Positions 10,339 through 33,579 of a stretch of 64,000 nucleotides of DNA are shown piece after piece. How positions within the stretch are numbered: position 1 is the stretch's first letter; each line of letters begins with the position of its first letter. The notes below the pieces were generated by a model, which was given only the letters and a program-made list of their open reading frames with translations, made no database searches and was not told the DNA's origin. This DNA is from Myxococcota bacterium (GTDB lineage: Bacteria > Myxococcota_A > UBA9160 > UBA4427), in the NCBI GenBank assembly GCA_041440805.1, contig JASDVF010000036.1, positions 75,179 through 139,178 on the forward strand. Direction: 5' to 3'. The position numbers and the translations under genes were made by a program.

Positions 10339-10389
10339 TCCGACTCTCCGTCGCCAAGCGATGGGGATCTGAGAAGCAGAGGTCGAACC

Positions 10390-14761: not shown

Positions 14762-14764
14762 CGT

Positions 14765-15693: not shown

Positions 15694-15696
15694 GTG

Positions 15697-16713
15697 TTAG
15701 TTGTTCTCCGCGTTCTGGGTCTGCTTCTTTGGTTGTGAAGGCGGATTGGGATGTGCACTTCCGCGAAGCCAAGGGAGCAGGTTGTAGCGAAGAAATCCGC
15801 GCATATGGCCAAGGGGCTCGTGGCTGGGGCGCTGCAGCAGTGTCGTTCTGGCTCGGCGAAGCGTGCCGCAGACGATGTAAATCAGGTTCGCTGCCCAGAG
15901 TGCGGCTCGTCCGTGGTTCTTCGTGAAGTAGCGGTGTCTGGACGCGTACCAGTAGGTGGGCGTCGGGCTCGAGACATCCTGCATGCCCGTCGAAGCGCTC
16001 CCTACGTGGGCGACTGAGCTTTCTACGACATAGGTCGTGGGCCAGCCGTTGCGAGCGGCTCGCAAGCAAAAGTCAGTCTCTTCGAAATAGAGGAAATAGC
16101 CTTCGTCCATCAGGCCGATCGAGCCGAAGACCTCACGGCGGATCAGCATGCTTGCGCCAGCGAGCCAGTCGACAGGGGTGGTTTCTTCAGGCAGTGCGGG
16201 CGCGATGACCCATCGCTCCAGAAGCCTTGTGACGCCGCTAATCCCGAGTGCGCCTTCTATCTCACCAAGCAGGCTCGGGAATCGGAAGGCGGTTTTATGC
16301 GGAGTACGCGCGGCATCGGTTCCGTGGATATAGCTTCCAGCGAGTCCGACGTCGGCGTGCGTTTCTAGGTAATCAACAAGTCGGTCGATTGCACCGGCAT
16401 CCGGGAAAGCGTCTGAATTCAAGAGGTAGACGTATTCAGGCGCATCATCGCCGGCGAGAGCAGGGCGGATCGCCTGATTGCATCCCGAAGCGAAGCCGCC
16501 ATTTCGAGAGGAGCGAATCAGGCTTACGCGATCGGCCCATGACTTGGCCGTGATGCCCGACTCGATTCGGTCCACGGAGCCATCGCCGGAAGCGTTATCG
16601 ACGATCGTGATACGCGCATCCGGGTAGCTCCGAAGTTCGGTCAAAGCGGTGCCGACGGCGTCGAGCGTCATCTCGGCGGTGCGGTAATTGACGATGACGA
16701 CGAGAAGTTTCAA
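15697..16713 (-). CDS. Glycosyltransferase family 2
   Basis: 338 aa. VVIVNYRTAEMT...IVDNASGDGS, then LLNSDAF (DXD-like) and FLYFEETDFCLRA. Confidence 0.85.
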   Translation of the reverse strand: MKLLVVIVNYRTAEMTLDAVGTALTELRSYPDARITIVDNASGDGSVDRIESGITAKSWADRVSLIRSSRNGGFASGCNQAIRPALAGDDAPEYVYLLNSDAFPDAGAIDRLVDYLETHADVGLAGSYIHGTDAARTPHKTAFRFPSLLGEIEGALGISGVTRLLERWVIAPALPEETTPVDWLAGASMLIRREVFGSIGLMDEGYFLYFEETDFCLRAARNGWPTTYVVESSVAHVGSASTGMQDVSSPTPTYWYASRHRYFTKNHGRAALWAANLIYIVCGTLRRARTTLLQRPSHEPLGHMRGFLRYNLLPWLRGSAHPNPPSQPKKQTQNAENN

Positions 16714-17337: not shown

Positions 17338-18270
17338 TTGCGCACCGAGACCTCCGCTTCCTCTGCCACTCCCTCCTGCGTTCTCGCCGGCTCCGAATCA
17401 TTGCTTCTGCAGTGCGGCGCTTTGCTGATCGAGAAGGGGTGGGCCATTCAGCGCGTCGTTTCAAAGAACGACGAAATCCTCGACTGGGCTCGGGAAGCAG
17501 GCATAGAAGTCTGTGCTCCTGGTCGCACGTTGGCGGAGGCACTCGGTTCAGTCGACTTCGACTACTTCTTCAGCATCACGAATCTGTCGATCATCTCAGA
17601 TGAGGTGCTGGCTCTCCCGAAGCGTTCTGCAATCAACTTCCATGACGGACCGCTGCCGGCCTACGCCGGGATGCACACGCCGGCCTGGGCGATTCTGAAT
17701 GGCGAGTCCGAGTACGGCGTCACGTTTCATGAAATGACCGGCGGCGTCGATGAAGGACGCATCCTCGTTCAGAAGCGCTTCGAGCTCGGAGGAGACGAAA
17801 CTTCCCTCGGCATCAATACCAGTTGTTATGCGGCGGCCATCGAAGGCTTCGAAGATCTGATCGGTCAGCTCGCGACCGGGCAAACGAATCCGACGGAACA
17901 AGACTTTTCCCAGCGCAGCTATTACGGGCGCCATCAGCGACCGGAAGGCGCCGGCCTGATCGACTTCTCTGCTTCTGCGGAAGTTCTCTCGCGATGGGTT
18001 CGCGCGATGGATTTCGGGGAGCGCTATGCGAATCCCTTCTGCGCTGCGAAGATTGCCCACGGAGGGGAGCTGCTGCTCGTTCGTTCGGCGACGCTCGCTG
18101 ACGCGGAGAGCACGTCTGCGGGCGCGCTCGTGGCGATTGGTGATGATGGGTGGACAGTAGGAACCGGCGACGGTGCGATTCGTCTGAGTGGCTTTAGGTG
18201 CCCTCGCGGCATTGCGCTCACGCCGCAGGAGGCCGCCGCACGGGTGGGGCTCTCGATAGGGCAGTCGATC
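17338..18270 (+). other. Formyltransferase domain (FMT-like N and C subdomains) of the NRPS
   Basis: A candidate catalytic trio of Asn, His and Asp lies in SITN, NFHDG and VDEGRI. A C-terminal beta-barrel-like segment follows (GELLLVRSATL...GAIRLSGFR). Boundaries are approximate. Confidence 0.75.
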
Positions 18271-21200
18271 GGCGCGACCGATGCGCTTGATCGCACGGCG
18301 ATCTCGACGCTAAACGAAACGTTTGCGCCCTCGGAAGCTTTCTGGGTCCGTCGGCTCGCGAGTCTCGATGCGGTCGAAGCGCCGTATCGGAGTGCCGGCA
18401 GTTCTAACAGTGCCGACGGTTCTAAGAGTACCGACGGTTCCAAGAGTGCCGACGGTTCTAATAGTTCCGCTCCGGTGGATTCGGAAGAGCGCCAGGTTGA
18501 ACGATTCGCTTTGGATCCCGCGGCACTGCTACCCGGACTCTCCGGTAGCGAACGACCCGAGGCCTTGATCGCTGGCTTCGCAGTCTATCTATCGCGCCTT
18601 CAGGGCGTTTCGGATTTTGATCTGACCTGGAGCGAAGACGCTCTACACCAGCGAATTGAGGAAGGGGGCCCCCTCTACTCGAAGCGTGTTCCGATGCGAC
18701 TCGCTGTTGCTGCGGATGCGACGGTCTCGGATGTCATGACGGCAGTGCGCACCGAAATCGGAAAGGTGCGCGACAAGGGCACGTTCCTGATCGATGCGGT
18801 CGCGCGCGATCCACGGCTATCCGCTCATCCGATTCTTTCCCGGGCACGTTGGACTTCTGTCACCGTCGGACTTCATGCGGACTCCGAGAGAACGGCCTTG
18901 CCGAAGGGGTCGGATCTTGGACTCTTTGTGAGTCCGTCTGGCGATGCGGCGCATCTTGCTTTTGATCGTGATGCGATCGATGTGACAGATGCTCGCCGAA
19001 TTCTTGATCAGTTGAGCGTGTTGCTTCGGGCGAGTTCTGATGATTCGCTTGCGATTGCGAAGCTGCCCTTGCTTGCGGACGATGAGCGAAGTCGAATTCT
19101 CTACGAATGGAATCAGACCGCCGCGGACTTTGATCGCACGGCCACTGTGGCTTCCCTGTTCGCTGCTCAGGTCGAGCGAACTCCGGACGCGACGGCCCTC
19201 GTCTTTGAGTCCGAAGAACTGAGCTACCGCGAACTCGATGAGCGGGCGACGAGGCTTGCACATCATCTCGTCGGTCTTGGAATCGGCCCCGATCGCTTGG
19301 TTGGACTCCATCTAGCACGGTCCGCCGACATGCTTGTGGGCGTGTTAGGCGTGCTCAAGGCGGGGGGGGCGTATGTGCCCCTTGATCCGGTCTATCCAGG
19401 AGATCGTATCGCCTACATGATCGAGGACTCGAAAGCCTCGGTTGTGGTGACGCATGCCGCAGCTTCGCCGGCACTTCCGTCCTGTGCGGCGGAAATCGTT
19501 GATCTTGACCGAGAGTCGCGCACGATCGCCACGCGGCCTACGTCGCCTTGCGAGACCCAAAGCGGCGCCGAGAACCTTGCATACGTCATATACACCTCGG
19601 GCTCGACGGGTAAGCCCAAGGGCGTGATGGTCGAACATCGCAACGCGGTCAACTTCTTCGTAGGTATGGATGAGCGCGTCCCTCACGATTCGCCGGGCAA
19701 CTGGCTCGCCGTGACGAGTCTTTCATTCGATATTTCAGTGTTGGAGTTGCTATGGACTCTGACGCGTGGCTTCAAGGTCGTCGTCTTTGCGGATCATGAT
19801 CGGGCTATGGGCGAGTCATCTGCTGCGCCTTGGCGCCCGATCGACATGGGTCTTGCGCTTTGGGGCAGCGATGCGGGCCCGGGGCCGCGCAAATATGAGC
19901 TGATGCTCGAGAGCGCAAAGTTCGCCGACGAACGCGGCTTCTGTGCGGTGCATACGCCGGAACGACATTTTGGTGCCTTTGGCGGGCCCTTCCCTAATCC
20001 GTCGGTGACAGGGGCTGCGATCGCTGCAGTGACCAAGCGGGTTCAGATTCGGGCAAGTAGTTGTGTACTGCCGCTGCATCATCCGATCCGCGTCGCGGAA
20101 GAATGGGCGGTTGTCGATAATATTTCGAATGGTCGAGTAGGGATTTCCTTCGCCTCTGGATGGCAGCCTAACGACTTCGTGATTCGTCCGAGTGCCTTCG
20201 CTAATGCGAAGACTTCTATGTTCGAAAGCGCTGAAATCGTTAGGCGTCTCTGGCGCGGAGATGCAGTCGAATTCGAAAATCCGAATGGCACTATGGTGCC
20301 GACTGCGACACTTCCCCGGCCTGTACAAGAAGAGCTGCCGGTTTGGATTACGACGGCCGGCAACGTAGAAACGTTTCGTGCGGCGGGCGCTGCAGGCGTG
20401 AACGTGCTGACGCATCTCCTGGGGCAGCCCCTCGAAGACCTCGAAGAGAAGATCGTTGCCTATCGCCAAGCGGCGGCGGATGCTGGGCACGACCCCAAGA
20501 AGGGCGTTGTCACCTGCATGCTCCACACCTTTGTTGGCGCGGACGATGCAGAGATTCGGCGCATCGTGCGCGAGCCGATGAAGGAATATCTCGGAAGTGC
20601 GATGGCCCTCGTCGTGGACTTCGCTTGGTCCTTCCCGGCGTTTGAACGGCCTGGGGGGCCAGACTCCAAGCCTGAAGATGTCGATCTTAGGTCGCTCTCC
20701 GGAGACGAAATAGACGCGATTCTCGAATTCGCCTTTGAACGTTATTACGAGACGAGTGGACTCTTTGGTACACCAGAAGTCTGCGAGCGGATGCTGCAGC
20801 GCTGCAAGGATGCCGACATCGACGAAATCGCTTGTCTGATCGACTTCGGGGTTGATACGGACGTCGTGCTAGGCGCACTCGAAGCGCTTGATGATGTGCG
20901 AAAGCTTGTGAACGAACGGCCGGTTGATGCCGTCGAGGCGAGTTCCTCGGATGTGCCGACCGCTGATCATTCCTTCGCGTCGCAGGTCGAACAACATTCC
21001 ATCACTCATCTCCAGTGCACGCCGTCCCACGCGACTATGCTGCTCACGAATCCGCAAACACGGGGAGCTTTCGGGCGAATTCCGCATTTGATGATCGGCG
21101 GCGAAGCATTCCCTGTCTCGCTTGCGGCGGAGCTCGATGGCGTCGCAGCTGGAAACGTAACGAATATGTACGGGCCGACGGAGACGACGATTTGGTCGTC

Positions 21201-22143
21201 GACGCAGCCTGTAGCCGGCAGTCCCGAGACGATCTCGATTGGGACACCGATTGCGAATACCCAGCTCTATATTCTCGACGCACATAACGAGCCGCTGCCT
21301 GTTGGAGTGGCCGGTGAGTTGTGGATTGCGGGGGAGGGTGTCGTTCGTGGCTATCACGAGCGTTCGGATCTGACCGATGAGCGATTCGTTCCGGATCCGT
21401 TTAGTGATCGCGATGGCGCGCGCATGTACCGGACAGGTGACCTTGCGCGATGGACCGAAGAAGGGCGCATCGACTTCCTGGGACGTCTCGATCACCAGGT
21501 GAAGATCCGCGGCTACCGGATTGAACTCGGCGAGATCGAAGCTCGGCTGGCTGGCCTGCCGGGTGTTCGCGAAGCGGTCGTGATCGCGCGCGAAGATGTG
21601 TCGGGAGATGTTCGGTTGGTGGGTTATGTGCTCGCCGAAGGCAATAAGATCGACGAGGGCGCGCTTCGTGACGGATTGCGTGAGCACCTACCGGAGTTCA
21701 TGGTTCCGTCGAATCTCGTTCGACTCGATCGCTATCCGCAGACGCCGAACGGCAAAGTGGACCGGAAAGCCTTGCCGGCGCCGAACGAAGTCGGACAGGT
21801 CTCGCAGGCCGTGTTCGTCGCACCCGAGAGTGATCTCGAGGCGCAGATCGCAATGGTCTGGCGCGAGGTGCTCTATCTCGAGCAGGTCGGCGTGAACGAC
21901 AACTTCTTTGACTTGGGCGGGCATTCGCTGCTCGTCGTTCAGGCACATCGCAAGCTAGCGGGAGTGCTGGAAGTTCCGATTACGCTCACAGATCTCTACC
22001 GCTTCCCGACAATCGCTGGCCTTGCGGAACGTCTCTCCAAGGGAGATCGCTCAGCAGAGGTCGCTGCGGCGAGTCGGGGGCGCGGCGACAAGCGACGTCA
22101 GGCGCTGGAGCGTCGACGTCGTCGGGGCGGCAAAAAGGATTGA
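17338..22143 (+). CDS. NRPS loading-type module: formyltransferase - partial condensation-like region - A domain interrupted by a luciferase-like monooxygenase - PCP
   Basis: 1601 aa with a TTG start at 17338 (no in-frame ATG nearby). INFHDGPLPAYAG begins at 17632. A3 YTSGSTGKPKG at 19591, A4 FDISV at 19726, A5 NMYGPTE at 21163. Also YRTGDLARW, GRLDHQVKIRGYRIELGEIE and PNGKVDR. PCP motif FFDLGGHSL with Ser at 21925-21927. Confidence 0.9.
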   Translation: MRTETSASSATPSCVLAGSESLLLQCGALLIEKGWAIQRVVSKNDEILDWAREAGIEVCAPGRTLAEALGSVDFDYFFSITNLSIISDEVLALPKRSAINFHDGPLPAYAGMHTPAWAILNGESEYGVTFHEMTGGVDEGRILVQKRFELGGDETSLGINTSCYAAAIEGFEDLIGQLATGQTNPTEQDFSQRSYYGRHQRPEGAGLIDFSASAEVLSRWVRAMDFGERYANPFCAAKIAHGGELLLVRSATLADAESTSAGALVAIGDDGWTVGTGDGAIRLSGFRCPRGIALTPQEAAARVGLSIGQSIGATDALDRTAISTLNETFAPSEAFWVRRLASLDAVEAPYRSAGSSNSADGSKSTDGSKSADGSNSSAPVDSEERQVERFALDPAALLPGLSGSERPEALIAGFAVYLSRLQGVSDFDLTWSEDALHQRIEEGGPLYSKRVPMRLAVAADATVSDVMTAVRTEIGKVRDKGTFLIDAVARDPRLSAHPILSRARWTSVTVGLHADSERTALPKGSDLGLFVSPSGDAAHLAFDRDAIDVTDARRILDQLSVLLRASSDDSLAIAKLPLLADDERSRILYEWNQTAADFDRTATVASLFAAQVERTPDATALVFESEELSYRELDERATRLAHHLVGLGIGPDRLVGLHLARSADMLVGVLGVLKAGGAYVPLDPVYPGDRIAYMIEDSKASVVVTHAAASPALPSCAAEIVDLDRESRTIATRPTSPCETQSGAENLAYVIYTSGSTGKPKGVMVEHRNAVNFFVGMDERVPHDSPGNWLAVTSLSFDISVLELLWTLTRGFKVVVFADHDRAMGESSAAPWRPIDMGLALWGSDAGPGPRKYELMLESAKFADERGFCAVHTPERHFGAFGGPFPNPSVTGAAIAAVTKRVQIRASSCVLPLHHPIRVAEEWAVVDNISNGRVGISFASGWQPNDFVIRPSAFANAKTSMFESAEIVRRLWRGDAVEFENPNGTMVPTATLPRPVQEELPVWITTAGNVETFRAAGAAGVNVLTHLLGQPLEDLEEKIVAYRQAAADAGHDPKKGVVTCMLHTFVGADDAEIRRIVREPMKEYLGSAMALVVDFAWSFPAFERPGGPDSKPEDVDLRSLSGDEIDAILEFAFERYYETSGLFGTPEVCERMLQRCKDADIDEIACLIDFGVDTDVVLGALEALDDVRKLVNERPVDAVEASSSDVPTADHSFASQVEQHSITHLQCTPSHATMLLTNPQTRGAFGRIPHLMIGGEAFPVSLAAELDGVAAGNVTNMYGPTETTIWSSTQPVAGSPETISIGTPIANTQLYILDAHNEPLPVGVAGELWIAGEGVVRGYHERSDLTDERFVPDPFSDRDGARMYRTGDLARWTEEGRIDFLGRLDHQVKIRGYRIELGEIEARLAGLPGVREAVVIAREDVSGDVRLVGYVLAEGNKIDEGALRDGLREHLPEFMVPSNLVRLDRYPQTPNGKVDRKALPAPNEVGQVSQAVFVAPESDLEAQIAMVWREVLYLEQVGVNDNFFDLGGHSLLVVQAHRKLAGVLEVPITLTDLYRFPTIAGLAERLSKGDRSAEVAAASRGRGDKRRQALERRRRRGGKKD
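18391..18462 (+). repeat. Four tandem 18-bp units encoding S-A/T-D/G-G/S-S-K/N in the NRPS interdomain linker
   Basis: The four units are agtgccggcagttctaac, agtgccgacggttctaag, agtaccgacggttccaag and agtgccgacggttctaat. They translate to SAGSSN SADGSK STDGSK SADGSN. Confidence 0.9.
19789..20960 (+). other. Luciferase-like (FMN-dependent) monooxygenase domain inserted between A4 and A5 of the adenylation domain
   Basis: About 480 aa separate FDISV (19726) from NMYGPTE (21163), against about 80-90 aa in ordinary A domains. The insert carries LLM-type stretches (ESAKFADERGFCAVHTPERHF, NGRVGISFASGW, ACLIDFG). Boundaries are approximate. Confidence 0.75.
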
Positions 22144-22186: not shown

Positions 22187-25100
22187 ATGAGTGATGAGGA
22201 GATCGGCGAGAATGATATCGCGATCGTGGGCATGGCTTTGCGCGTGCCCGGCGCGAATTCGCCGACAGAGTTCTGGGACAATCTTCAGAACAAGCGTGAG
22301 TCTATCGTCGATTACGATGAGGCGACGATGCTTGCTTCGGGTGAGTCCAAAGAAGTGCTCCGCAATCCGGCTTATGTAAGTCGGGGCGGCGCCCTTGAAA
22401 ACATGAAGCTATTCGATCGTGACTTCTTCGGCTTTAGCCCGAAAGAAGCGGCGATCCTTGATCCCCAGCATCGCCACTTCATGGAGCTGTCCTGGGAAGC
22501 GCTGGAGGATGCCGGCCATACGCCGACTAACTTCGACGGACAGATCGGCGTCTTCGCTGGCTGCGGTATGGGCAGCTACTTCTATTTCAACGTATGCAGT
22601 AACCGTGACCTCGTCGATTCGGTCGGGATGTTCCTGCTTCGACATACGGGCAACGACAAAGACTTTCTCGCGACCAGGGTGTCCTACGTCCTCGACCTCA
22701 AGGGGCCGAGTGTCAATGTACAGACGGCGTGTTCGACGTCCCTCGTCGCAACCCATCTCGCTTGCCAGAGTCTGCTCACCGGCGAGTGTGACCTCGCGCT
22801 GGCAGGCGGTGTCACGATCCAGTTCCCGACGGAAGTCGGCTACGTCTACCGGGACGGCGAGATTCTCGCGCCGGACGGCCATTGTCACTCCTTCGACCAT
22901 CGCGCCCAAGGAACCGTGCTTACGAGCGGCGGTGGCGTTGTTTCGTTGCGTCGGCTCGATGACGCGATTAACGATGGCGACAATATTTATGCTGTCATTA
23001 AGGGCTCTGCTGTTAACAACGACGGTGGCAACAAGGTCGGATACCTAGCACCCAGCGTGGATGGTCAGGCTGCGGCCATGACCGAGGCGTACACGCTCGC
23101 AGAAATCGACCCATCGACGATTGGAATGATCGAGTGTCATGGCACAGGCACTTATATGGGAGATCCGATCGAGGTCGCAGCACTCACCCAAGCTTTCCGC
23201 GCAGCGAATGAAGACAGTGACCAGGGCGACCAGTTTTGCCGTATCGGCTCGGTGAAGTCGAATATCGGTCACCTGGACACGGCGGCTGGTGTTGTTGGGC
23301 TGATGAAGGCCGCGCTCTCCCTTAAGCATCATACAATTCCGGCTTCGCTGAATTTCGAGCGACCGAATCCGGAGATCCGATTCACCGATTCTCCCTTCGT
23401 AGTGAATGATGACACGTACCCTTGGGCGGCGAGCAAGACGCCTAGGCGTGCGGCGGTGAACTCTCTTGGAGTCGGTGGCACGAATGCACATGTCGTCCTT
23501 GAAGAGCACGCATCGGCGGTGACGGCGAACGAAGATGTTTCGCGCGCGCGATTGCTGCAGATATCGGCCAAGAATAAGCGATCGCTCGATGGCGCATGTG
23601 CCCGTCTTAAGACGCACCTAGAGGCGAATCCCGACCTTTCGCTTGGGGATGTCGCCTGGTCTCTGCGTGAGACGCGAGAGAACTTCGAGACACGACGCGT
23701 GTTAGTGGCGAAGGATCGCGAACAGGCTCTTGAGTTGCTCGCGGGACTCGATCCGAGGCGTGTCTTTACGCATAGCGCGGCGGACATCCGAGCCTCGATC
23801 GTGTTCATGTTCTCGGGTGGCGGGAGCCAGTATCCCGGCATGGGCCGAGGCCTTTACGAGAGCGAGCCGATTTTCCGGCAGCATGTTGATCGTGGGTTAG
23901 AACTCTATCGCGAGCGCACGGGATTTGACCTGCGCAGCCTCGTGTTCTGTGATCCGAATCGCGTTGAGCAGGCAGATGGACCTTTGACCGATATGAGTCG
24001 CCAGCTTCCGGCGATCTTCATCGTCGAGTACGCGATGGTGGAGCTTTGGAAGAGCCGCGGTATTGAGCCCTCTCTTCTGATCGGCCACAGCATGGGCGAG
24101 AACGCCGCCGCGTGTATCGCAGGCGTCGTGACCTTCGAGGAATGTCTAGACTGGCTCATTCTGCGAGGACAGCTTTTTGAGAAGACGCCGACGGGTGGCA
24201 TGATCGCGGTTTCGCTCCCGGCGGATGATCTCGTTCCGTACTTGGAAGATTCCTGCGACCTCGCGGCGAGCAATGCGCCTGGCCTAAGTGTGGCTTCTGG
24301 CGGTGTCGCCGAGATCGATGCGCTGGAGAAGCGTCTCGAAGAAGCGGAAATTGACTTTCAGAGAGTCTCGATCGAACGTGCGGCGCATTCGCGACTGCTC
24401 GATCCGATCCTCGATGAGTTCCGGTCATTCGTTGAGAAACTCGATCTCAAAGCGCCGTCGATTCCTTTTATCTCGAATCGAACCGGAGAGCGTATTAGCG
24501 ATAAAGATGCGATAAGCCCCGAGTATTGGGTTCAGCATCTGCGCAACGAAGTGCGCTTTTCGGAAGGGCTCCGCACTATTCTCGCGACGCCCGGACAGAT
24601 TCTTCTCGAAGTGGGACCCGGCCAAGCGCTTTGCAGTTATGCGCGTCAGCAAACCGCACAAGGCGCCTCGACGAACGTGATTCCGTCGCTTCGTCATAAA
24701 GCAGATTCTATCTCCGACGCCGAGTATCTACTCTCGACGATCGGACGGCTCTGGGCTTCGGGGGCGGATGTCGAGCTCGATTCGCTCTACGAGGGCGAGA
24801 CGCGGCGTCGCGTTAGGCTGCCTACCTACACATGGGATCATCAGAGTTATTTCATTGAGCGCGTTGAGGCGGATCTTACCGAGAAGGACTCGGGGCTACC
24901 GGAGCATCTCGAAGATGTGACCGATTGGGGCTTCGCTCCAACCTGGCCGGTGACAGCGCTCGATCCTCGCCAGATTGAGGTTCCCCAGACCTGGCTCATT
25001 TTCATGGACCAAGTCGGAATCGGCCGGCGCTTAAAGACGCGACTAGAAGACGCGGGACATTCGGTCGTCAGCGTCTTTGTCGCCGATAGCTATCGCAAAC

Positions 25101-28100
25101 GTTCTGCCGATGAATATTCGCTTTCGCCCGAGTTAGGCGCGGAAGGGTATTCGGCCCTGATGCGGGATCTCGCCGCCGAAGGTCGGATGCCGACACAGAT
25201 CGTGCATCTTTGGCTGACCTCCGATGTTGAACGCTTTCGTCCCGGATCGAGCTTCTTCCACGAAAACCTCCAGAATGGCTTTTATAGTCTCTACTTCCTG
25301 GCGCGGGCGCTCGCGAACGAGAGCCTGCCCGGCGATGTACACCTAACGGTCGTCTCGAATGGGTTGCAGTCGATTCTTGAGGGCGATGGTCCGCTCTATC
25401 CTGCGAAGGCGACCGTGCTTGGTCCCGTCGAGGTGATTCCGCGCGAGTTGCCTGGTGTGACCTGCAAGAGCGTTGACATCACGCTGCCGCTCAAGGGGCA
25501 AGCGGCTTTGCGCGAACGCTTCTTGGGTCGGCGGAAGAGCGTTGGCGCTCGTCCCGCGAATCTTGATGACGTGACAGATCAACTCGAGCGCGAAGTGCTC
25601 GCCGCCTCAGAATGCGACATCGTCGCGCACCGCGGGGGTGAGCGTTATGCACGGCGCTTCGAAGCTCGCCCACTGCCCGAGCGCACAGGGGATTCGAACG
25701 CATCCCTCGTTGATGAGGGCACCTACCTCATCACGGGCGGTCTAGGCGGCCTTGGATTCACCCTGGCGGATCGACTCGCACGAGAAGTTCGTGGCGCGAA
25801 GCTCGTCTTGGTGGGGCGTACGGCATTACCCGATCCGTCGGAATGGGAGGCCCTGGAGCGAAACGGCGGAGCATCGTCTCGCGATCTAGGCTGCATTCGT
25901 CGTATACGAGGACTCGAAGCGGCCGGTGCAGAGGTAATGACCTTGGCCGCGGACGTGACGAATTTCGATGAGATGCGTCGCGGTATCGATGCCGTGCGTG
26001 AGCGCTTCGGCAAAGTTCACGGCGTGTTCCATGCGGCAGGTGTTGTTGCAGACGAACTCATTCAGTTGAAGACCGATGCCGCTATCGAGCGCGTCTTCGG
26101 GCCGAAGGTGCACGGCACGCAGGTGCTTGCCAGTTTGCTCGAAGAAGCGGGCGCGGAACTTCTCGTTCTTTATTCCTCGACGAGTGCGATTACGGCGCCG
26201 CCTGGACAGGTGGACTACGCCGCAGCGAATTCTTTCCTGGATGCCTTCGCTCAGAGCCGCAAGGACCATCCTATTCGAACGCTCGCGGTGAACTGGGGCA
26301 TTTGGAATGAAGTCGGGCTCGCTGCCGCTTCCCTCGATCGGAACAAGGAGACGCACGGAGCCGAACAGGCCTACGCCGTCCAGCATCCCCTCTTTGATAC
26401 TCGGGAACAAGACTCCCACGGTCGTACAGCCTTCTTCAAGAGCTTTTCCCCGCAACGGGATTGGGTACTCGAAGAACATCGAACAGCGAACGGCGAAGCC
26501 CTCTACCCGGGAGCGGGTTACCCGGAGCTCGCGCGAGCAGCTCTAGCTGAATACGGCGAAACGGGTCCTTTCGAGATTCAGGATCTCTACTTCCTTAGGC
26601 CGCTCTATGTGCCGGACGGAGAAGTTCGTGATGTGCGAGTGCTGCTCGAACCGAACGATCTCGGCTACCGCTTCAGCGTCCGAACACGTCATAGAGTAGA
26701 GGGCCGGCCGGCGTGGATGCTGACCGCCGAAGCAACGCTCATATTAGGCGAAGGGGCACCCTCGCGTACTGTCGACCTTGATGAGATTGACGCGCGATGT
26801 GGAGCCCAGCGCTCCCACGTAAATCCCCTCGGACATGCGTCCGGTCAGGAGAACCATGTTCGCTTCGGGCCGCGGTGGCGCGTGTTGCGGCAGGTTTTGT
26901 ATGGGGAAGCTGAAGCGCTCGCATATCTCGAGGTGCCCGATGAGTTCGAAGGAGATCTAGAGGACTTTCAATTTCATCCGGCTCTGCTCGACTACGCGAC
27001 CGGATACGCGATGGGGCTCATCCCCGGCTATGACCCGAATGGCGCACTCTGGATTCCTGTTTCTTACGGAAGCATCAAGCTCGAAGCACCTCTCGAAAAG
27101 AAGATCAGTAGTTGGGTCCGCTTGCGAAATGGTGACGAGGCCGGCGGCTTCGCGTCTTTCGATATCGTGATCACGTCTGACGACGGTCGCGTGCTCTTCG
27201 AAGCCGAAGACTTCACGATTAAGCGCGTCGAAGGCGAAGTGGACTTCTCCGAGCCCGTCGACGGAAACGCTAGCGACATAGAGTTCGAAGCTTCGAATCA
27301 AGCGAAGGGCGACGATGATCTCTCTCCGGCGGAGCTGCACCTGCGGCGAAACTACGAGGTAGGGATTGGCCCAGAGGAAGGCACCGAGGCTCTCATGCGC
27401 GTCCTTGCTACCGACTCGGGGCCGCAAATGGTCGTGACGTCGATCAATCTTGACTATCTGATTCGTCAGGCAGACACGGTCGTCGCAGAGTCATCGAATA
27501 GCGGCGCGCGCTTCGAACGTCCCGCCCTCGACAGCGAATACGAAGCGCCGCGTGATGAGATCGAAAAAACGCTCGGGGCTTTATGGGAAGACTTGCTAGG
27601 TGTTGATGGTCTCGGGATTTACGACAACTTTTTTGATCTAGGCGGACATTCGCTGATTGCGGTTCGTTTCTTTACGAAGATTAAGAAGGCCTACCGGGTC
27701 GACTTCCCGATCTCGATTCTCTTCGAGGCGCCTACCATTGAGGGCTGCGCGGAACTGATTCGGGAGACGATCGGCGATGACTCTTCCCGCGCAGTTGGGG
27801 CGAGCGAAGAGGATGGCACGGCAGCGACGCGTCGAACTCGCTTCAAGCATCTTGTTGCGATGGATGCGGGAGGCGGCGCAGGTGGCCCAAATAAACCTTT
27901 CTTTCTGGTCGCGGGCATGTTTGGCAACGTTTTGAATCTGCGTCATCTCGCAGCGCTCGTGGGCACGGATCGACCGTTCTACGGCCTACAAGCGCGTGGG
28001 CTCTATGGGGATGAAAAGCCTCACGAGACGTTCGAAGAGATGGCCTCGACGTACATCGAAGAGATTCGACAGGTGCAGCCGGAAGGCCCCTACACGATTG

Positions 28101-28690
28101 GCGGGTTCTCGGGCGGCGGCATCACTGCTTTCGAGATGGCGCATCAGCTTCAGGCGGCTGGTGAGACTGTGCAGAGTGTCGTCCTATTGGACTCGATTCT
28201 GCCACAGCTTCCGCCGCTTACCGCGATGGACCGGATTCGTGTGCAGGCTATGCGGCTTAAGCAGCGCGGTGCTGGCTATTTGTGGGAATGGGTACGCAAC
28301 CGCGCGAAGTGGCAGATGGAACAACTCGAGGCGCGCTTTAGTGACGGCTCCGAAGATGTGCGTGCAGAGGATGAGTTCCATGATGTTCAGATCGAGCGAG
28401 CATTCCGAGCGGCGCTGCCGATTTACCCCATGCAGCGCTACGAAGGGCATGTGCATCTCTTTCGACCTAAGCTTGACCGTGCCTATGTACTCGGTCCCGA
28501 TCGTATTCTTAACAGCGACAAACAATGGATCTACGCGGACAACGGTTGGGGACAATGGGTCGAGTCAATCGAGACTTATGAGATGCCCGGTAATCACGAC
28601 AGCATGGTGCTCGAACCGAACGTTCGTGTGATGGCTTCGCGCTTGCGAGAACTGCTCGAAGCGAAGCCAGGCGATGTGAAAGACCGGTAG
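22187..28690 (+). CDS. Type I polyketide synthase, KS-AT-KR-DH-carrier-TE
   Basis: 2167 aa.
- KS: Cys in TACSTS at 22730, plus ECHGTGT and GHLDTAAG.
- AT: GHSMGE with Ser at 24089; second motif is AAHS.
- KR: GTYLITGGLGGLG at 25718, with YSSTS...YAAAN.
- DH: HRTANGEALYPGAGY with His at 26477, plus HPALLDYATGY.
- Carrier: FFDLGGHSL with Ser at 27650.
- TE: GFSGGG, with a distal GNHDS. Confidence 0.9.
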   Translation: MSDEEIGENDIAIVGMALRVPGANSPTEFWDNLQNKRESIVDYDEATMLASGESKEVLRNPAYVSRGGALENMKLFDRDFFGFSPKEAAILDPQHRHFMELSWEALEDAGHTPTNFDGQIGVFAGCGMGSYFYFNVCSNRDLVDSVGMFLLRHTGNDKDFLATRVSYVLDLKGPSVNVQTACSTSLVATHLACQSLLTGECDLALAGGVTIQFPTEVGYVYRDGEILAPDGHCHSFDHRAQGTVLTSGGGVVSLRRLDDAINDGDNIYAVIKGSAVNNDGGNKVGYLAPSVDGQAAAMTEAYTLAEIDPSTIGMIECHGTGTYMGDPIEVAALTQAFRAANEDSDQGDQFCRIGSVKSNIGHLDTAAGVVGLMKAALSLKHHTIPASLNFERPNPEIRFTDSPFVVNDDTYPWAASKTPRRAAVNSLGVGGTNAHVVLEEHASAVTANEDVSRARLLQISAKNKRSLDGACARLKTHLEANPDLSLGDVAWSLRETRENFETRRVLVAKDREQALELLAGLDPRRVFTHSAADIRASIVFMFSGGGSQYPGMGRGLYESEPIFRQHVDRGLELYRERTGFDLRSLVFCDPNRVEQADGPLTDMSRQLPAIFIVEYAMVELWKSRGIEPSLLIGHSMGENAAACIAGVVTFEECLDWLILRGQLFEKTPTGGMIAVSLPADDLVPYLEDSCDLAASNAPGLSVASGGVAEIDALEKRLEEAEIDFQRVSIERAAHSRLLDPILDEFRSFVEKLDLKAPSIPFISNRTGERISDKDAISPEYWVQHLRNEVRFSEGLRTILATPGQILLEVGPGQALCSYARQQTAQGASTNVIPSLRHKADSISDAEYLLSTIGRLWASGADVELDSLYEGETRRRVRLPTYTWDHQSYFIERVEADLTEKDSGLPEHLEDVTDWGFAPTWPVTALDPRQIEVPQTWLIFMDQVGIGRRLKTRLEDAGHSVVSVFVADSYRKRSADEYSLSPELGAEGYSALMRDLAAEGRMPTQIVHLWLTSDVERFRPGSSFFHENLQNGFYSLYFLARALANESLPGDVHLTVVSNGLQSILEGDGPLYPAKATVLGPVEVIPRELPGVTCKSVDITLPLKGQAALRERFLGRRKSVGARPANLDDVTDQLEREVLAASECDIVAHRGGERYARRFEARPLPERTGDSNASLVDEGTYLITGGLGGLGFTLADRLAREVRGAKLVLVGRTALPDPSEWEALERNGGASSRDLGCIRRIRGLEAAGAEVMTLAADVTNFDEMRRGIDAVRERFGKVHGVFHAAGVVADELIQLKTDAAIERVFGPKVHGTQVLASLLEEAGAELLVLYSSTSAITAPPGQVDYAAANSFLDAFAQSRKDHPIRTLAVNWGIWNEVGLAAASLDRNKETHGAEQAYAVQHPLFDTREQDSHGRTAFFKSFSPQRDWVLEEHRTANGEALYPGAGYPELARAALAEYGETGPFEIQDLYFLRPLYVPDGEVRDVRVLLEPNDLGYRFSVRTRHRVEGRPAWMLTAEATLILGEGAPSRTVDLDEIDARCGAQRSHVNPLGHASGQENHVRFGPRWRVLRQVLYGEAEALAYLEVPDEFEGDLEDFQFHPALLDYATGYAMGLIPGYDPNGALWIPVSYGSIKLEAPLEKKISSWVRLRNGDEAGGFASFDIVITSDDGRVLFEAEDFTIKRVEGEVDFSEPVDGNASDIEFEASNQAKGDDDLSPAELHLRRNYEVGIGPEEGTEALMRVLATDSGPQMVVTSINLDYLIRQADTVVAESSNSGARFERPALDSEYEAPRDEIEKTLGALWEDLLGVDGLGIYDNFFDLGGHSLIAVRFFTKIKKAYRVDFPISILFEAPTIEGCAELIRETIGDDSSRAVGASEEDGTAATRRTRFKHLVAMDAGGGAGGPNKPFFLVAGMFGNVLNLRHLAALVGTDRPFYGLQARGLYGDEKPHETFEEMASTYIEEIRQVQPEGPYTIGGFSGGGITAFEMAHQLQAAGETVQSVVLLDSILPQLPPLTAMDRIRVQAMRLKQRGAGYLWEWVRNRAKWQMEQLEARFSDGSEDVRAEDEFHDVQIERAFRAALPIYPMQRYEGHVHLFRPKLDRAYVLGPDRILNSDKQWIYADNGWGQWVESIETYEMPGNHDSMVLEPNVRVMASRLRELLEAKPGDVKDR

Positions 28691-32229: not shown

Positions 32230-32897
32230 ACCGACGTGTCGAGTTAGGCGTAGCGATCGGGTTGATGCTCCTCACGGGCATCGCCTCGTGGTGGCTTTTG
32301 CTTCGTCCCATCGTTGAGCATGACGCAGCGGTATTTGATGCTTTGCCCACCGAATTGAACGGATGGCGATCTGTTGATCTCACGATCGATCAGGCCGTCT
32401 CGGATATGTTGGCGGCGGATCACAACGTGCAGCGCGCCTACCTTCATCCCCTTGGCTACCTAATTTTCGTTTACGTAGGCTACTACGGCACCGAACGCGG
32501 AGGGACCCCGGAGCACACTCCTGACATTTGCTATCCGGCACAAGGATGGCAGATCGTAGAGTCAATGATTCAGAGGGCCGGCGGGCAGGGCGGCTTCGAT
32601 CTCCGCGAGTTCGTTGTGGAGCAGGCAGGGGAGCGCCGGCTGGTGCATTACTGGTATCGGACCGGAAGCGAGAGCGGGTTGACCTCTGTGGTTGGACTTA
32701 GACTCCGTCACGTTCTCGATCGCATGACCGAAAAACGGGGGGACGGGGCGCTCGTTCGACTCAGTACGCCGCTTGGCAGCTCAGATATCGCAAGTGCCCG
32801 AACTCGGCTCTTTTCGATGGGTCGCGTCGTTGAAGAAGCGCTTGTGGGTCTCTGGCCTAACGACAGTCAATCTGTCGCCGTATTGTCAGGGCACTGA
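32226..32897 (+). CDS. epsI: EpsI-family exosortase-associated protein
   Basis: 223 aa with a TTG start overlapping the upstream stop (TTGA). N-terminal TM, then LPTELNGW...VYVGYYGTERGG..EHTPDICYPAQGWQI...LVHYWY, which matches the EpsI pattern. Confidence 0.8.
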   Translation: MNRRVELGVAIGLMLLTGIASWWLLLRPIVEHDAAVFDALPTELNGWRSVDLTIDQAVSDMLAADHNVQRAYLHPLGYLIFVYVGYYGTERGGTPEHTPDICYPAQGWQIVESMIQRAGGQGGFDLREFVVEQAGERRLVHYWYRTGSESGLTSVVGLRLRHVLDRMTEKRGDGALVRLSTPLGSSDIASARTRLFSMGRVVEEALVGLWPNDSQSVAVLSGH

Positions 32898-32901
32898 CTC
32901 G

Positions 32902-33579
32902 ATGTCTACAAAGAGCGGGGCGGAGAGCGAATTTTCGAAGCTGACTCACGGCTTCGTCGATCCTGAATTCTGGGTAGAGGCCTCGTCGCTTCGATACGGG
33001 ATTGGGGATCTCGCGCCCGCCGAACGACCTTTAGCAGAGAAGGCAATCGCCTCGCGACAGCGCGAATTCGCGACGGGCCGCGTGCTCGCACACCGTTTGC
33101 TCGATCAAGCGGGGCACGAGGCCTCAGCGTTGTTGCGAGACGAGGACCGCGTGCCCGAGTGGCCGTCTGGGATCGTAGGATCGATCACGCATTGCGATTC
33201 TCTTTGCGTGGTGGCAGTAGGGAGCAACGAGACCCATGCTGGGGTAGGGCTCGATGTTGAGCCGGATGAGCCGGTCTCTTCGGGTGTCGAACGCGTGGTG
33301 TGTCGGCCTGAGGAAGGCCCGTGGCTCGATGGCGCGTCCGATGATGAGGACCGCGCTCGACGGGTTCGACTCATCTTCAGCGTGAAAGAAGCGACCTACA
33401 AGGCATTCTATCCCGAGCTTCGAACGTTCTGGAGTTTTCAGGACGTTCATGTCGCAGTCGACGAATCAGCCGAGCGATTTATTGCCCATTTGCCGGACGG
33501 GCCAGACGTGCGCGAAATTGAGGGTCGCGTACTGCGGCGGCGTGGCTGGATTCTCTCAAGCGTTTGCCGCCGAAGGTAG
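32902..33579 (+). CDS. 4'-phosphopantetheinyl transferase (EntD/Sfp type)
   Basis: ORF 32773-33579. The ATG at 32902 lies 4 nt after the EpsI stop. Motifs are REFATGR, GSITHCDSLCVVAV, GLDVEP and FSVKEATYKAF. Confidence 0.85.
   Translation: MSTKSGAESEFSKLTHGFVDPEFWVEASSLRYGIGDLAPAERPLAEKAIASRQREFATGRVLAHRLLDQAGHEASALLRDEDRVPEWPSGIVGSITHCDSLCVVAVGSNETHAGVGLDVEPDEPVSSGVERVVCRPEEGPWLDGASDDEDRARRVRLIFSVKEATYKAFYPELRTFWSFQDVHVAVDESAERFIAHLPDGPDVREIEGRVLRRRGWILSSVCRRR

What the first reader, a model, noticed from the sequence alone, without database searches (positions are those of the whole stretch)
17338..22143. Unusual loading module: full formyltransferase + half C domain + A domain split by a luciferase-like monooxygenase
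Seen in sequence:
- An FMT-like N and C subdomain pair (INFHDGPLPAYAG from 17632).
- About 230 aa that resemble only the C-terminal half of a condensation domain, ending LLADDERSRILYEWNQT. No HHxxxDG occurs anywhere upstream of the A domain.
- A3 at 19591 and A4 FDISV at 19726, then an LLM insert of about 390 aa, then A5 NMYGPTE at 21163, then the PCP Ser at 21925.

Established knowledge (from memory): a monooxygenase inserted between A4 and A5 is known from the terminal amide-forming glycine modules MtaG/MelG of myxothiazol/melithiazol. N-terminal F domains are known from LgrA-type starters.

Inference:
- Combining both in a loading module that feeds a KS is an arrangement I do not recognise.
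- The first three specificity-code positions read D-I-L (from FDISVLE), as in glycine codes. Positions 299/301 read I/S, so the substrate call is weak.
- Alpha-hydroxylation of an N-formyl-aminoacyl thioester would give unusual chemistry.
Basis: partly seen in the sequence, partly recalled or inferred. Interest (0 to 1): 0.72.

Follow-up and report, generated by a model that had tools for sequence, protein, structure and literature searches.

The report
Formyl-glycine hydroxylating starter module, widespread
The gene really does encode a peptide-synthetase starter module built from a formyltransferase, half a condensation domain and a glycine-activating domain split by an oxygenase; it is not a one-off. 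It is one member of a large, uncharacterised two-gene family found in many bacterial phyla, often inside polysaccharide gene clusters.

Summary
ORF 17338-22143 (1601 aa) reads:
- a full formyltransferase (FT; both subdomains, Asn100/His102/Asp138 present);
- only the C-terminal lobe of a condensation (C) domain, with no HHxxxDG;
- adenylation (A) motifs A1-A4;
- a 340-aa luciferase-like monooxygenase (LLM) of the MupA/Atu3671 family;
- A5-A10, then a carrier domain (PCP).

One detail was misread. The specificity code is DILQMGMIWK, a clear glycine code, not a weak call.

The module is not unique. At least 591 stretches in species-representative genomes encode the FT plus half-C unit. In the 80 best loci, spanning about ten phyla, the same FT-C*-A(LLM)-T protein is paired with the same KS-AT-KR-DH-T-TE polyketide synthase, in four different gene orders. 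Polysaccharide-assembly genes lie nearby in 36 of 57 loci with enough flank, and exosortase genes lie nearby in two distant lineages.

The most likely chemistry has four steps: glycine is loaded, N-formylated, alpha-hydroxylated on the carrier, then extended by one malonate, reduced and dehydrated. The fate of the product is inferred only.

No paper describing this architecture was found. I rate it a new variant of known kinds, of moderately high interest.

The parts
17338..22143 (+). Whole NRPS gene, 1601 aa: FT - C-terminal lobe of C - A(LLM) - PCP
   Evidence: ORF list; Pfam and NCBIfam domains; motif coordinates
17374..18273 (+). Formyltransferase domain, both subdomains (aa 13-312). Catalytic Asn100, His102 and Asp138 lie in NFHDGPLPAYAG ... 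VDEG.
   Evidence: Pfam Formyl_trans_N and _C. phmmer to the ArnA FT domain, 2e-21. AF2 model pLDDT 90.6; Foldseek TM 0.87 to 2bln. N/H/D invariant in 58 of 58 orthologues.
18370..18489 (+). Disordered Ser/Asp/Gly/Lys-rich linker (aa 345-384), specific to this window
   Evidence: Gap in all aligned homologues; pLDDT below 50 for aa 356-383
18490..19137 (+). C* = C-terminal lobe of a condensation domain (aa 385-600). It ends in the C-A linker LLADDERSRILYEWNQT. The N-lobe and HHxxxDG are absent.
   Evidence: phmmer to Txo2 residues 255-472. Family profile against PDB hits only C-terminal halves of C domains, best 2e-20. No HHxxxDG. No Pfam Condensation hit.
19138..19842 (+). Adenylation domain, N-terminal piece (motifs A1-A4; code positions 235/236/239 = D798, I799, L802)
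   Evidence: Pfam AMP-binding 608-823; code extraction
19882..20901 (+). Luciferase-like FMN monooxygenase domain inserted between A4 and A5 (aa 849-1188)
   Evidence: TIGR04020 474 bits, cutoff 244. PDB 6KET, the PuwE oxygenase domain, 6e-102. AF2 places it as a separate domain between two low-confidence linkers.
20950..21777 (+). Adenylation domain, C-terminal piece (A5-A10; code positions Q1226, M1252, G1254, M1277, I1285, W1286, K1473)
   Evidence: Pfam AMP-binding second stretch and AMP-binding_C; code DILQMGMIWK
21844..22035 (+). PCP domain; phosphopantetheine Ser1530 at nt 21925-21927
   Evidence: Pfam PP-binding 1503-1566. GGHSL at nt 21916. Ser present in all 53 of the 58 family ORFs that reach it; the other 5 are truncated there.
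22060..22140 (+). Arg-rich C-terminal tail (DKRRQALERRRRRGGKKD), a probable docking element for the PKS
   Evidence: A basic tail with the same pattern occurs in nearly all family members; the PKS N-termini are acidic. The docking role is inferred.
22187..28690 (+). Partner PKS, 2167 aa: KS-AT-(psiKR)-KR-DH-T-TE. It starts 44 nt after the NRPS stop.
   Evidence: Pfam. Active-site motifs. Catalytic residues conserved in 34 orthologues, KR of B type. Co-occurs with the NRPS in 51 loci.
15697..16713 (-). Family-2 glycosyltransferase transcribed divergently from the NRPS. It is the most frequently co-located third gene.
   Evidence: Pfam. tblastn orthologues at 32-86% identity in about 25 of 80 loci. 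It sits between the PKS and NRPS in roseobacter loci.
32773..33579 (+). Sfp-type phosphopantetheinyl transferase, the likely activator of the two carrier domains
   Evidence: Pfam 4PPT_N and ACPS. NCBIfam Npt/PptT-like. A homologue lies directly after the NRPS in L002 and L068.

Best explanation
The gene encodes the initiation module of a two-protein NRPS-PKS line.

Proposed sequence of steps:
1. The interrupted A domain activates glycine and loads it on Ser1530 of the PCP.
2. The N-terminal ArnA/FMT-like formyltransferase transfers a formyl group from N10-formyl-tetrahydrofolate to the glycyl amine, giving N-formylglycyl-S-PCP.
3. The FMN-dependent LLM inserted between A4 and A5 hydroxylates the glycine alpha-carbon. 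The product is an N-formyl-alpha-hydroxyglycyl thioester, an N-acyl hemiaminal. The formyl group stands in for the upstream acyl chain that the LLM sees in MtaG, MelG and SolF.
4. The retained C-terminal lobe of a C domain has no catalytic histidines. It most likely serves as the structural platform that normally packs against the A core, with the FT replacing the lost N-lobe.
5. The starter passes, probably through an Arg-rich tail and acidic-head docking pair, to the KS of the downstream PKS.
6. The PKS adds one malonate, reduces the beta-keto group (B-type KR) and dehydrates.
7. The TE releases or transfers a C4 unit, 4-formamido-4-hydroxybut-2-enoyl or a derivative of it.

Because of the genomic company the cassette keeps, the acceptor is most likely a sugar or lipid-linked glycan of an exopolysaccharide pathway.

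Shown: the domain identities, the intact catalytic residues, the Gly code, and the family-wide pairing with the PKS.
Inferred: the order of formylation and hydroxylation, a single (non-iterative) extension, and the fate of the product.
For: Glycine:
- The code is DILQMGMIWK in the window and DILQ[MLFC]GM[IV]WK in the 58 orthologues (one reads DILQLGVIWK).

FT competence:
- Asn100, His102 and Asp138 are invariant in 58 of 58 orthologues.
- The domain folds like the ArnA FT, TM 0.87.

FT acts on the carrier-bound amino acid:
- The same FT-C* unit heads multimodular NRPSs whose first A domains carry Val-, Ser-, Tyr- and Thr-like codes.
- One example is a Bradyrhizobium megasynthetase.
- F-A(Gly)-PCP starters that feed a KS are documented (PMC5764310).

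LLM as alpha-hydroxylase:
- TIGR04020 scores above its cutoff.
- 6e-102 to the PuwE oxygenase domain, PDB 6KET. That domain is credited with the 2-hydroxyl of a carrier-bound acyl chain (PMC4219810).
- The same A4/A5 insertion is described in MtaG and MelG (PMC11411415). SolF is likewise a Gly module carrying a flavin monooxygenase domain, and alpha-hydroxyglycine survives in solanimycin B (PMC10204066).
- In the family, an LLM is found only with Gly codes.

C*:
-.

PKS:
- Active-site residues of KS, AT, KR, DH, T and TE are conserved in 34 orthologues.
- The NRPS and PKS stay together in four different gene orders across phyla.

Context:
- Glycosyltransferase, Wzx, Wzy, priming sugar transferase or tyrosine-kinase genes occur in 36 of 57 loci with at least 6 kb of flank.
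- An annotated roseobacter plasmid locus shows the same company.
- Exosortase modules lie next to the cassette in the window and in Agarilytica.
Against: - No biochemical datum exists for any member.
- The FT is far closer to sugar formyltransferases (ArnA 2e-21) than to the LgrA F domain (1e-4).
- Its folate-loop motif is unusual: HDGPLPxYAG instead of HxSLLPxxRG.
- An N-formyl-alpha-hydroxyglycyl thioester could collapse to formamide plus a glyoxylyl thioester, as in MtaG.
- The KR-then-DH order resembles iterative PUFA and enediyne synthases as I recall them, so more than one extension is possible.
- In 21 of 57 loci no polysaccharide gene was detected. Examples are the Anaerolineae locus L051 and the Myxococcus locus L062.
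- Variants without an LLM but with the same PKS exist (L059), so hydroxylation is not obligatory for the line.
Confidence: 0.55

Rival explanations
1. Glyoxylyl-starter generator. As in MtaG and MelG, alpha-hydroxylation is followed by C-N cleavage. N-formyl-alpha-hydroxyglycyl-S-PCP would break down to formamide plus glyoxylyl-S-PCP. The PKS would then extend an aldehyde-bearing two-carbon starter into a 4-oxobut-2-enoyl electrophile.
For: The MtaG/MelG C-A-MOX-A-T-TE modules use exactly this hydroxylation and dealkylation on glycine (PMC11411415). The LLM and the Gly code are the same kind here.
Against: In solanimycin B the alpha-hydroxyglycine made by the related SolF module is retained (PMC10204066). 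Formylating only to discard formamide is wasteful. LLM-less orthologues with the same PKS (L059) must hand over an N-formylglycyl starter, so the KS accepts the intact unit.
Confidence: 0.15
2. The FT domain does not touch the carrier-bound glycine. Like ArnA, it formylates an amino sugar of the neighbouring polysaccharide pathway, and is fused to the NRPS only for co-expression.
For: The best sequence and structure matches are the ArnA and sugar N-formyltransferases WbkC, QdtF and FdtF. The loci are rich in sugar-modifying genes.
Against: The FT is always N-terminal and followed by the C-lobe that contacts the A core. The FT-C* model has pTM 0.85, meaning one rigid unit. The same unit starts multimodular NRPSs with diverse first amino acids; in the one such locus examined (Bradyrhizobium, L084) the few annotated flanking genes are transposases and an isopeptidase, with no glycan gene. 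From memory, the LgrA F domain is itself thought to derive from a sugar formyltransferase.
Confidence: 0.1
3. An ordinary diffusible secondary metabolite. The cassette makes a small free molecule, possibly a glycine-primed polyene if the KS-AT-KR-DH PKS iterates. Its position in polysaccharide loci would reflect co-regulation or chance, not chemistry.
For: The TE is a standard type-I thioesterase. The KR-DH order recalls iterative polyene-forming synthases (memory). In 21 of 57 loci no glycan gene was detected. Contexts such as L051 (ABC transporter, aldehyde dehydrogenase) are unrelated to glycans.
Against: A specific GT2 orthologue travels with the cassette in alpha-, beta- and gammaproteobacteria, Myxococcota, Planctomycetota and Spirochaetota. 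The 63% of loci with glycan genes within about 10 kb is, by my rough estimate rather than a computed background, well above chance.
Confidence: 0.3
4. The FT and C* regions are non-catalytic relics that only stabilise the A domain. The module would load plain (hydroxy)glycine.
For: C* is clearly a non-catalytic remnant. The FT folate-loop motif deviates from the canonical one.
Against: The Asn-His-Asp triad and the whole NFHDGPLPxYAG motif are invariant across phyla at only 30-40% overall identity. That degree of conservation indicates selection on catalysis.
Confidence: 0.05

Closest known systems
F-A(Gly)-PCP loading modules of oxazole polyketides (PtxE of phthoxazolin; also oxazolomycin, conglobatin, rhizopodin)
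   Same: An N-terminal formylation domain, a glycine-specific A domain and a PCP, handing N-formylglycyl to a KS that adds malonate (PMC5764310).
   Different: Those modules have no LLM in the A domain. I did not check whether they carry a half-C lobe. They work with an ATP-dependent cyclodehydratase (OzmP/CongE/PtxD) to make an oxazole. No such partner is conserved with this cassette: Asn-synthase-like hits occur in only 3 of the 82 loci.
MtaG / MelG (myxothiazol, melithiazol) and SolF (solanimycin) modules with an oxygenase-bearing glycine A domain
   Same: Glycine modules carrying a flavin monooxygenase domain, which in MtaG/MelG splits the A domain. The oxygenase acts on the alpha-carbon of an N-acylated glycyl thioester (PMC11411415, PMC10204066). 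Here the LLM sits between motifs A4 and A5.
   Different: Those are elongation or termination modules with a complete, active C domain that supplies the N-acyl group. Here the N-lobe of C is gone and a formyltransferase supplies the smallest possible acyl group. The module also starts a line rather than ending one.
LgrA initiation module of linear gramicidin (F-A-PCP)
   Same: A tailoring formyltransferase fused in front of a starter A-PCP; a module without a working C domain.
   Different: Only weak sequence similarity (E about 1e-4, aligned over about 110 residues). The FT here has both FMT/ArnA subdomains and is followed by a C-lobe. The substrate is Gly, not Val. The downstream partner is a PKS.
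PuwE oxygenase domain (PDB 6KET), puwainaphycin synthetase
   Same: The closest solved relative of the insert (6e-102). It is proposed to add the 2-hydroxyl to a carrier-bound acyl chain (PMC4219810).
   Different: In PuwE it sits between PKS and NRPS modules rather than inside an A domain. Its substrate is a beta-amino fatty acyl chain.
ArnA N-terminal formyltransferase domain
   Same: The best sequence and structure match of the FT, covering both subdomains and the Asn-His-Asp triad.
   Different: ArnA formylates UDP-Ara4N and is fused to a decarboxylase. Here the partner is an NRPS module and the motif is HDGPLPxYAG.
Small-molecule genes linked to PEP-CTERM/exosortase loci (N-acyl amino acid synthases; Craig, Cherry and Brady 2011, as cited in PMC12078418)
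   Same: Amino-acid-derived small-molecule biosynthesis genes sit next to exosortase and EPS genes.
   Different: The enzymology is entirely different (a single acyltransferase against an NRPS-PKS). Only the genomic association is comparable.

Membership tests
NRPS formylation-domain initiation module (LgrA / PtxE type) | N-terminal formyltransferase-fold domain with the Asn-His-Asp catalytic triad | tested here: met
   Pfam Formyl_trans_N and _C; N100/H102/D138 aligned to the ArnA triad and invariant in 58 of 58 orthologues; Foldseek TM 0.87
NRPS formylation-domain initiation module (LgrA / PtxE type) | Fused directly upstream of a starter A-PCP with no functional C domain | tested here: met
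   No HHxxxDG; only the C-terminal lobe of C is present; A and PCP follow
NRPS formylation-domain initiation module (LgrA / PtxE type) | Close sequence kinship with the LgrA F domain | tested here: not met
   LgrA chains match at E about 1e-4 over about 110 residues, against ArnA at 2e-21 over 260 residues
NRPS formylation-domain initiation module (LgrA / PtxE type) | Formyl transfer from N10-formyl-THF to the aminoacyl-S-PCP | not testable with these tools
   Needs an enzyme assay or mass spectrometry
Oxazole-forming N-formylglycine starter systems (Ozm / Cong / Ptx) | Partner ATP-dependent cyclodehydratase (OzmP/CongE/PtxD) encoded with the loading module | tested here: not met
   The only PP-loop enzyme nearby (10390-12249) resembles the XrtA/PEP-CTERM amidotransferase TIGR03108 (504 bits, below its 817-bit cutoff). 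Homologues occur in only 3 of the 82 loci.
A domains interrupted by a monooxygenase (MtaG / MelG / SolF type) | LLM of the natural-product family (TIGR04020) | tested here: met
   474 bits against a cutoff of 244; 6e-102 to PuwE
A domains interrupted by a monooxygenase (MtaG / MelG / SolF type) | Insertion between core motifs A4 and A5 of an otherwise complete A domain | tested here: met
   FDISV at aa 797 and NMYGPTE at aa 1276; both AMP-binding halves and AMP-binding_C present; AF2 shows two flexible linkers around a separate barrel
A domains interrupted by a monooxygenase (MtaG / MelG / SolF type) | Glycine specificity code | tested here: met
   DILQMGMIWK; the family is uniform; an LLM is found only with Gly codes
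A domains interrupted by a monooxygenase (MtaG / MelG / SolF type) | Preceded by a complete C domain (elongation or terminal module) | tested here: not met
   N-lobe and HHxxxDG absent
A domains interrupted by a monooxygenase (MtaG / MelG / SolF type) | Alpha-hydroxylation of the carrier-bound glycyl residue | not testable with these tools
   Needs biochemistry
NRPS condensation domain | Two-lobed chloramphenicol-acetyltransferase-like fold with HHxxxDG in the N-lobe | tested here: not met
   Only residues equivalent to about 245-455 of a C domain are present; no Pfam Condensation hit even at E 10
XrtA / PEP-CTERM exosortase EPS locus (context) | Exosortase, EpsI, chain-length determinant, tyrosine autokinase and amidotransferase encoded together | tested here: inconclusive
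   All five types hit, but only EpsI passes its curated cutoff. The exosortase ORF is short and split from EpsI. No PEP-CTERM protein was found in the window by a motif scan.

The most novel reading that the evidence does not exclude
The FT-C*-A(LLM)-T plus KS-AT-KR-DH-T-TE cassette would be a dedicated, phylum-spanning machine. It would build a small N-formyl hemiaminal (or derived aldehyde/enamide) C4 acyl unit. Its thioesterase would transfer that unit onto a sugar of an exopolysaccharide or glycolipid. This would be a previously unrecognised, NRPS-PKS-made class of glycan decoration or cross-linker, associated in some lineages with exosortase systems.
Probability: 0.25. Interest if true: 0.8.

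Novelty: new variant of a known kind. Interest (0 to 1): 0.6.

Why it matters
Each part is known on its own: the formylation domain, the oxygenase-interrupted glycine A domain, and the truncated C domain. Their fusion into one starter module has no characterised example that I could find. Databases name these proteins only generically, for example 'MupA/Atu3671 family LLM'.

The module and its partner PKS form a conserved cassette. It occurs in Myxococcota, Planctomycetota, Chloroflexota, Acidobacteriota, Bacteroidota, Actinomycetota, Verrucomicrobiota, Gemmatimonadota, Spirochaetota and three classes of Pseudomonadota. Cultured carriers include roseobacters, rhizobia and Myxococcus.

A pathway this widespread with no known product is a concrete target. 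If the product decorates polysaccharides, it would add a new kind of glycan chemistry and give a handle on what exosortase-type EPS loci make. If it is a free metabolite, it is still a very common unknown natural product.

The family also shows how an NRPS can replace the catalytic half of a C domain with a different acyl-transferring enzyme while keeping the structural half.

Tried and rejected
- **Pfam and NCBIfam on aa 341-608** gave nothing, even at E 10. The half-C assignment needed PDB phmmer and a family profile.
- **First homologue search** with the N-terminal 608 aa found only 25 proteins, because of the word filter. Family size became visible only through the genome scan and the A(LLM)T query.
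- **Representative-library search**: the counts (34,178 at E up to 1e-30) cannot be used as a family size. The profile includes the C-lobe and C-A linker and therefore collects every multimodular NRPS. The result was used only to show that FT-C* also heads other NRPSs.
- **Ten full-text literature searches** found no description of FT plus A(LLM) modules. Searches targeted that architecture; some searches looked for the roseobacter or exosortase NRPS-PKS cluster; one search was on solanimycin/SolG. The library lacks most subscription journals, so absence is not proof.
- **Moran et al. 2007** (PMC1932822): I recall that this paper mentions a conserved roseobacter NRPS-PKS-glycosyltransferase cluster, but it is not held.
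- **First random sample** of flanking ORFs exceeded the residue limit and was repeated with 123 ORFs.
- **PEP-CTERM motif scan** of the window found only an antisense artefact.
- **Model coordinates** are not exposed. I could not measure whether the FT active site faces the carrier-binding side of C*.
- **Oxazole-type pathway** was considered and rejected: no conserved cyclodehydratase.
- **Inactive FT** was considered and rejected: the triad is invariant.

Full report
**Observation**

The window carries an ORF at 17338-22143 on the + strand (TTG start, 1601 aa). A 2167-aa ORF at 22187-28690 follows after 44 nt.
- INFHDGPLPAYAG at nt 17632
- LLADDERSRILYEWNQT at aa 578
- A3 at nt 19591
- FDISV at nt 19726
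- NMYGPTE at nt 21163
- the carrier serine at nt 21925

No HHxxxDG-like motif occurs anywhere in the ORF.

Pfam finds Formyl_trans_N, Formyl_trans_C, AMP-binding in two pieces, Bac_luciferase (aa 850-1148), AMP-binding_C and PP-binding. NCBIfam places the insert in TIGR04020, the MupA/Atu3671 natural-product LLM family, at 474 bits against a cutoff of 244.

**The half condensation domain**

Residues 341-608 hit no Pfam or NCBIfam model. Two other searches assign them:
- Residues about 409-608 align to residues 255-472 of the Txo2 C domain (E 1e-5).
- A profile built from 46 family members for aa 385-600 hits only the C-terminal halves of solved C domains. Examples are McyB 2e-20, Txo2 2e-18, EntF 245-455 at 3e-11, and the second-module C domain of LgrA.

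An AlphaFold2 model of aa 1-608 is confident (pLDDT 90.6, pTM 0.85). It has one disordered stretch at aa 356-383, a Ser/Asp/Gly-rich linker that only this window has. The high pTM suggests that the FT and the C-lobe form one rigid unit. I could not inspect the interface because the coordinates are not exposed.

**The formyltransferase**

The domain contains both FMT/ArnA subdomains.
- Its best solved relatives are the ArnA formyltransferase domain (phmmer 2e-21; Foldseek TM 0.87 to 2bln) and the sugar N-formyltransferases.
- The LgrA F domain matches only at about 1e-4.
- Asn100, His102 and Asp138 align with the ArnA catalytic triad. They are invariant in every family alignment and in 58 of 58 full-length orthologues.
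- The motif around them, NFHDGPLPxYAG, is a family signature that differs from the canonical HxSLLPxxRG.

**The adenylation domain and its insert**

I anchored on the A4, A5 and A10 motifs and on the (I/V)T..Q.TPS and GGE motifs. The ten specificity positions read D798, I799, L802, Q1226, M1252, G1254, M1277, I1285, W1286 and K1473, that is DILQMGMIWK. All but one of the 58 orthologues read DILQ[MLFC]GM[IV]WK; the exception is DILQLGVIWK. To my knowledge this is the canonical glycine code.

The insert is 6e-102 to the oxygenase domain of PuwE (PDB 6KET). That domain is credited with introducing the 2-hydroxyl of the carrier-bound beta-amino fatty acyl chain of puwainaphycins (PMC4219810).

MtaG and MelG have the same interrupted layout, C-A-MOX-A-T-TE, in which glycine is alpha-hydroxylated and the product dealkylates (PMC11411415). 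SolF is likewise a glycine module with a flavin monooxygenase domain, and there the alpha-hydroxyglycine is kept in solanimycin B (PMC10204066).

An AF2 model of aa 600-1580 (pLDDT 80, pTM 0.54) shows the barrel as a separate domain between two low-confidence linkers.

**The partner PKS**

The downstream protein is KS-AT-(psiKR)-KR-DH-T-TE.
- Its motifs are the KS Cys-His-His triad, AT GHSMG, KR Lys/Ser/Tyr/Asn with the B-type Asp, DH His and Asp, a PCP-like GGHSL carrier, and TE GFSGG.
- Each catalytic residue is conserved in all or nearly all (31-34) of the 34 orthologues.
- The DH follows the KR. As I recall, that order is unusual for modular PKSs and typical of PUFA and enediyne synthases, so iteration cannot be excluded.
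- Nearly all NRPS orthologues end in an Arg-rich tail, and many PKS orthologues begin with an acidic stretch. This suggests a docking pair.

**How common it is**

Of these, 591 encode a relative. The 80 best cover almost the whole 608-aa FT-C* region. They come from:
- Myxococcota (the closest, at 89% identity, is 'Deltaproteobacteria bacterium UBA4427')
- Planctomycetota
- Anaerolineae
- Acidobacteriota
- Gemmatimonadota
- Verrucomicrobiota
- Bacteroidota and Rhodothermales
- Actinomycetota
- Spirochaetota
- alpha-, beta- and gammaproteobacteria

Clustering the ORFs of these loci gives one NRPS family in 77 loci (median 1555 aa) and one PKS family in 51 loci (median 2147 aa). The remaining loci are mostly cut by contig ends.

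The pair occurs in four gene orders:
- NRPS then PKS, as in the window
- PKS-GT2-NRPS-PPTase in roseobacters (Sulfitobacter albidus, Parasedimentitalea marina plasmid pW43C)
- divergent in Rhizobium and Neorhizobium
- PKS then NRPS in Myxococcus

The 120 best homologues of the A(LLM)-T portion, down to 56% identity, all belong to this FT-bearing family. Full-length members run to about 1,570 aa, and the few shorter or partial sequences lack part or all of the FT. They carry only generic names. Plasmid records call the protein 'MupA/Atu3671 family FMN-dependent luciferase-like monooxygenase'.

**Variants**

The FT-C* unit is not tied to the LLM.
- It heads multimodular NRPSs of 2,000-6,000 aa whose first A domains carry Val-, Ser-, Tyr-, Thr- and other codes.
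- One example is a Bradyrhizobium plasmid megasynthetase.
- Gly-coded members without an LLM exist, one of them with the same PKS (L059).
- An LLM is found only with the Gly code.

These facts argue that the FT formylates whatever amino acid the starter carrier holds. They also argue that the LLM is a glycine-specific add-on.

**Genomic company**

In the window the cassette lies between two groups of genes.
- Upstream, transcribed divergently: a GT2, a PssD/PssE-type glycosyltransferase pair, a 2OG oxygenase and a polytopic membrane protein.
- Downstream: a tyrosine autokinase, a chain-length determinant, an exosortase-like ORF, EpsI and an Sfp-type PPTase.
- Further upstream: an XrtA-type amidotransferase.

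Across phyla the recurrent neighbours are glycan genes:
- GT2 and GT4 glycosyltransferases
- the priming sugar transferase
- Wzx and a Wzy-like protein
- sugar 4,6-dehydratases
- a tyrosine kinase

With a BLAST panel of such genes, 36 of 57 loci with at least 6 kb of flank have at least one. One particular GT2 orthologue accompanies the cassette in about 25 loci from several phyla. In Agarilytica a complete exosortase-EpsI, a TPR protein, a chain-length determinant and a kinase lie directly upstream.

The association is not universal. Anaerolineae and Myxococcus loci show unrelated neighbours.

**Mechanism**

The best-supported reading runs as follows:
1. Glycine is loaded.
2. It is N-formylated, as in the documented F-A(Gly)-PCP starters that feed a KS (PMC5764310).
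3. The LLM hydroxylates the alpha-carbon of this N-acylglycyl thioester, as in SolF, MtaG and MelG.
4. The PKS extends once with malonate, reduces and dehydrates.
5. The TE releases or transfers the unit.

The C-lobe is best seen as the structural half of an ancestral C domain. The FT replaces the catalytic half and provides the N-acyl group that the LLM's substrate normally gets from the upstream chain. This is an inference.

The rivals are:
- MtaG-like collapse to a glyoxylyl starter
- an ArnA-like FT that acts on an amino sugar
- a free, possibly iteratively built, metabolite
- an inactive FT

**Novelty**

All the parts belong to known kinds, and F-A(Gly)-PCP feeding a KS is known. The fusion of FT, half-C and LLM-interrupted A domain, and the conserved cassette with its glycan association, are not described in anything I could search. 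Of the ten full-text searches, targeted this architecture. The library is incomplete, and I recall that the roseobacter NRPS-PKS-glycosyltransferase cluster was noticed in comparative genomics papers without a product.

I therefore class it as a new variant of a known kind. It is interesting mainly because it is so widespread and so uniformly uncharacterised.

Noticed in passing
window 31419-32018 and 32226-32897 (+): The exosortase-like ORF is only 199 aa. The EpsI/DUF3485 part is a separate ORF, with stop codons between them. In Agarilytica (L009:4138-5715) the two form one 526-aa protein. This may be a split or frameshifted exosortase.
   Followed up: partly
window 18370-18489 (+), NRPS aa 345-384: A Ser/Asp/Gly/Lys low-complexity repeat (SADGSKSTDGSKSADGSNSS) sits between the FT and C*. 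It is absent from the 12 homologues aligned and is predicted to be disordered.
   Followed up: partly
window 22187-28690 (+): The partner PKS has its DH after the KR (KS-AT-psiKR-KR-DH-T-TE) and a PCP-like GGHSL carrier. As I recall, that order is that of PUFA and enediyne synthases, so iteration is possible.
   Followed up: partly
window 22060-22140 (+) and 22187-22230 (+): The NRPS ends in an Arg-rich tail that is conserved across the family. The PKS begins with an acidic stretch. Together they are a probable docking pair.
   Followed up: partly
window 12317-13852 (-): A 511-aa membrane protein with at least eight predicted TM segments and no Pfam or NCBIfam hit. Homologues at 28% identity lie directly upstream of the PKS in roseobacter loci (L002:1065-2270, L083:5831-7153). 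It may be a further member of the system.
   Followed up: partly
window 13928-16713 (-): The block GT2, PssD-like, PssE-like (an Alg14/Alg13-type split glycosyltransferase) and a 2OG-Fe(II) oxygenase. The three glycosyltransferase genes are syntenic with the cassette in the related Myxococcota loci L001, L003, L005 and L007; the oxygenase was detected only in L001.
   Followed up: partly
L084 (Bradyrhizobium japonicum USDA 123 plasmid pUSDA123-1) 15061-31758: An FT-C*-A-T starter without an LLM begins a megasynthetase with at least five A-T repeats. It lies on a plasmid from a root-nodule isolate, next to IS elements.
   Followed up: no
L002 (Sulfitobacter albidus CP073581) 10001-14451: In this complete genome the FT part (522 aa) and the A(LLM)-T part (977 aa) are called as two overlapping genes. 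The C-terminus of the first diverges from the family, which points to a frameshift or pseudogene. The PKS upstream (about 2679-8976) has no called gene in the record used, and its tblastn hits are also split between frames.
   Followed up: partly
window 10390-12249 (+): An asparagine-synthase-like amidotransferase. Its best match is the XrtA/PEP-CTERM amidotransferase family, at 504 bits, below the 817-bit cutoff.
   Followed up: no
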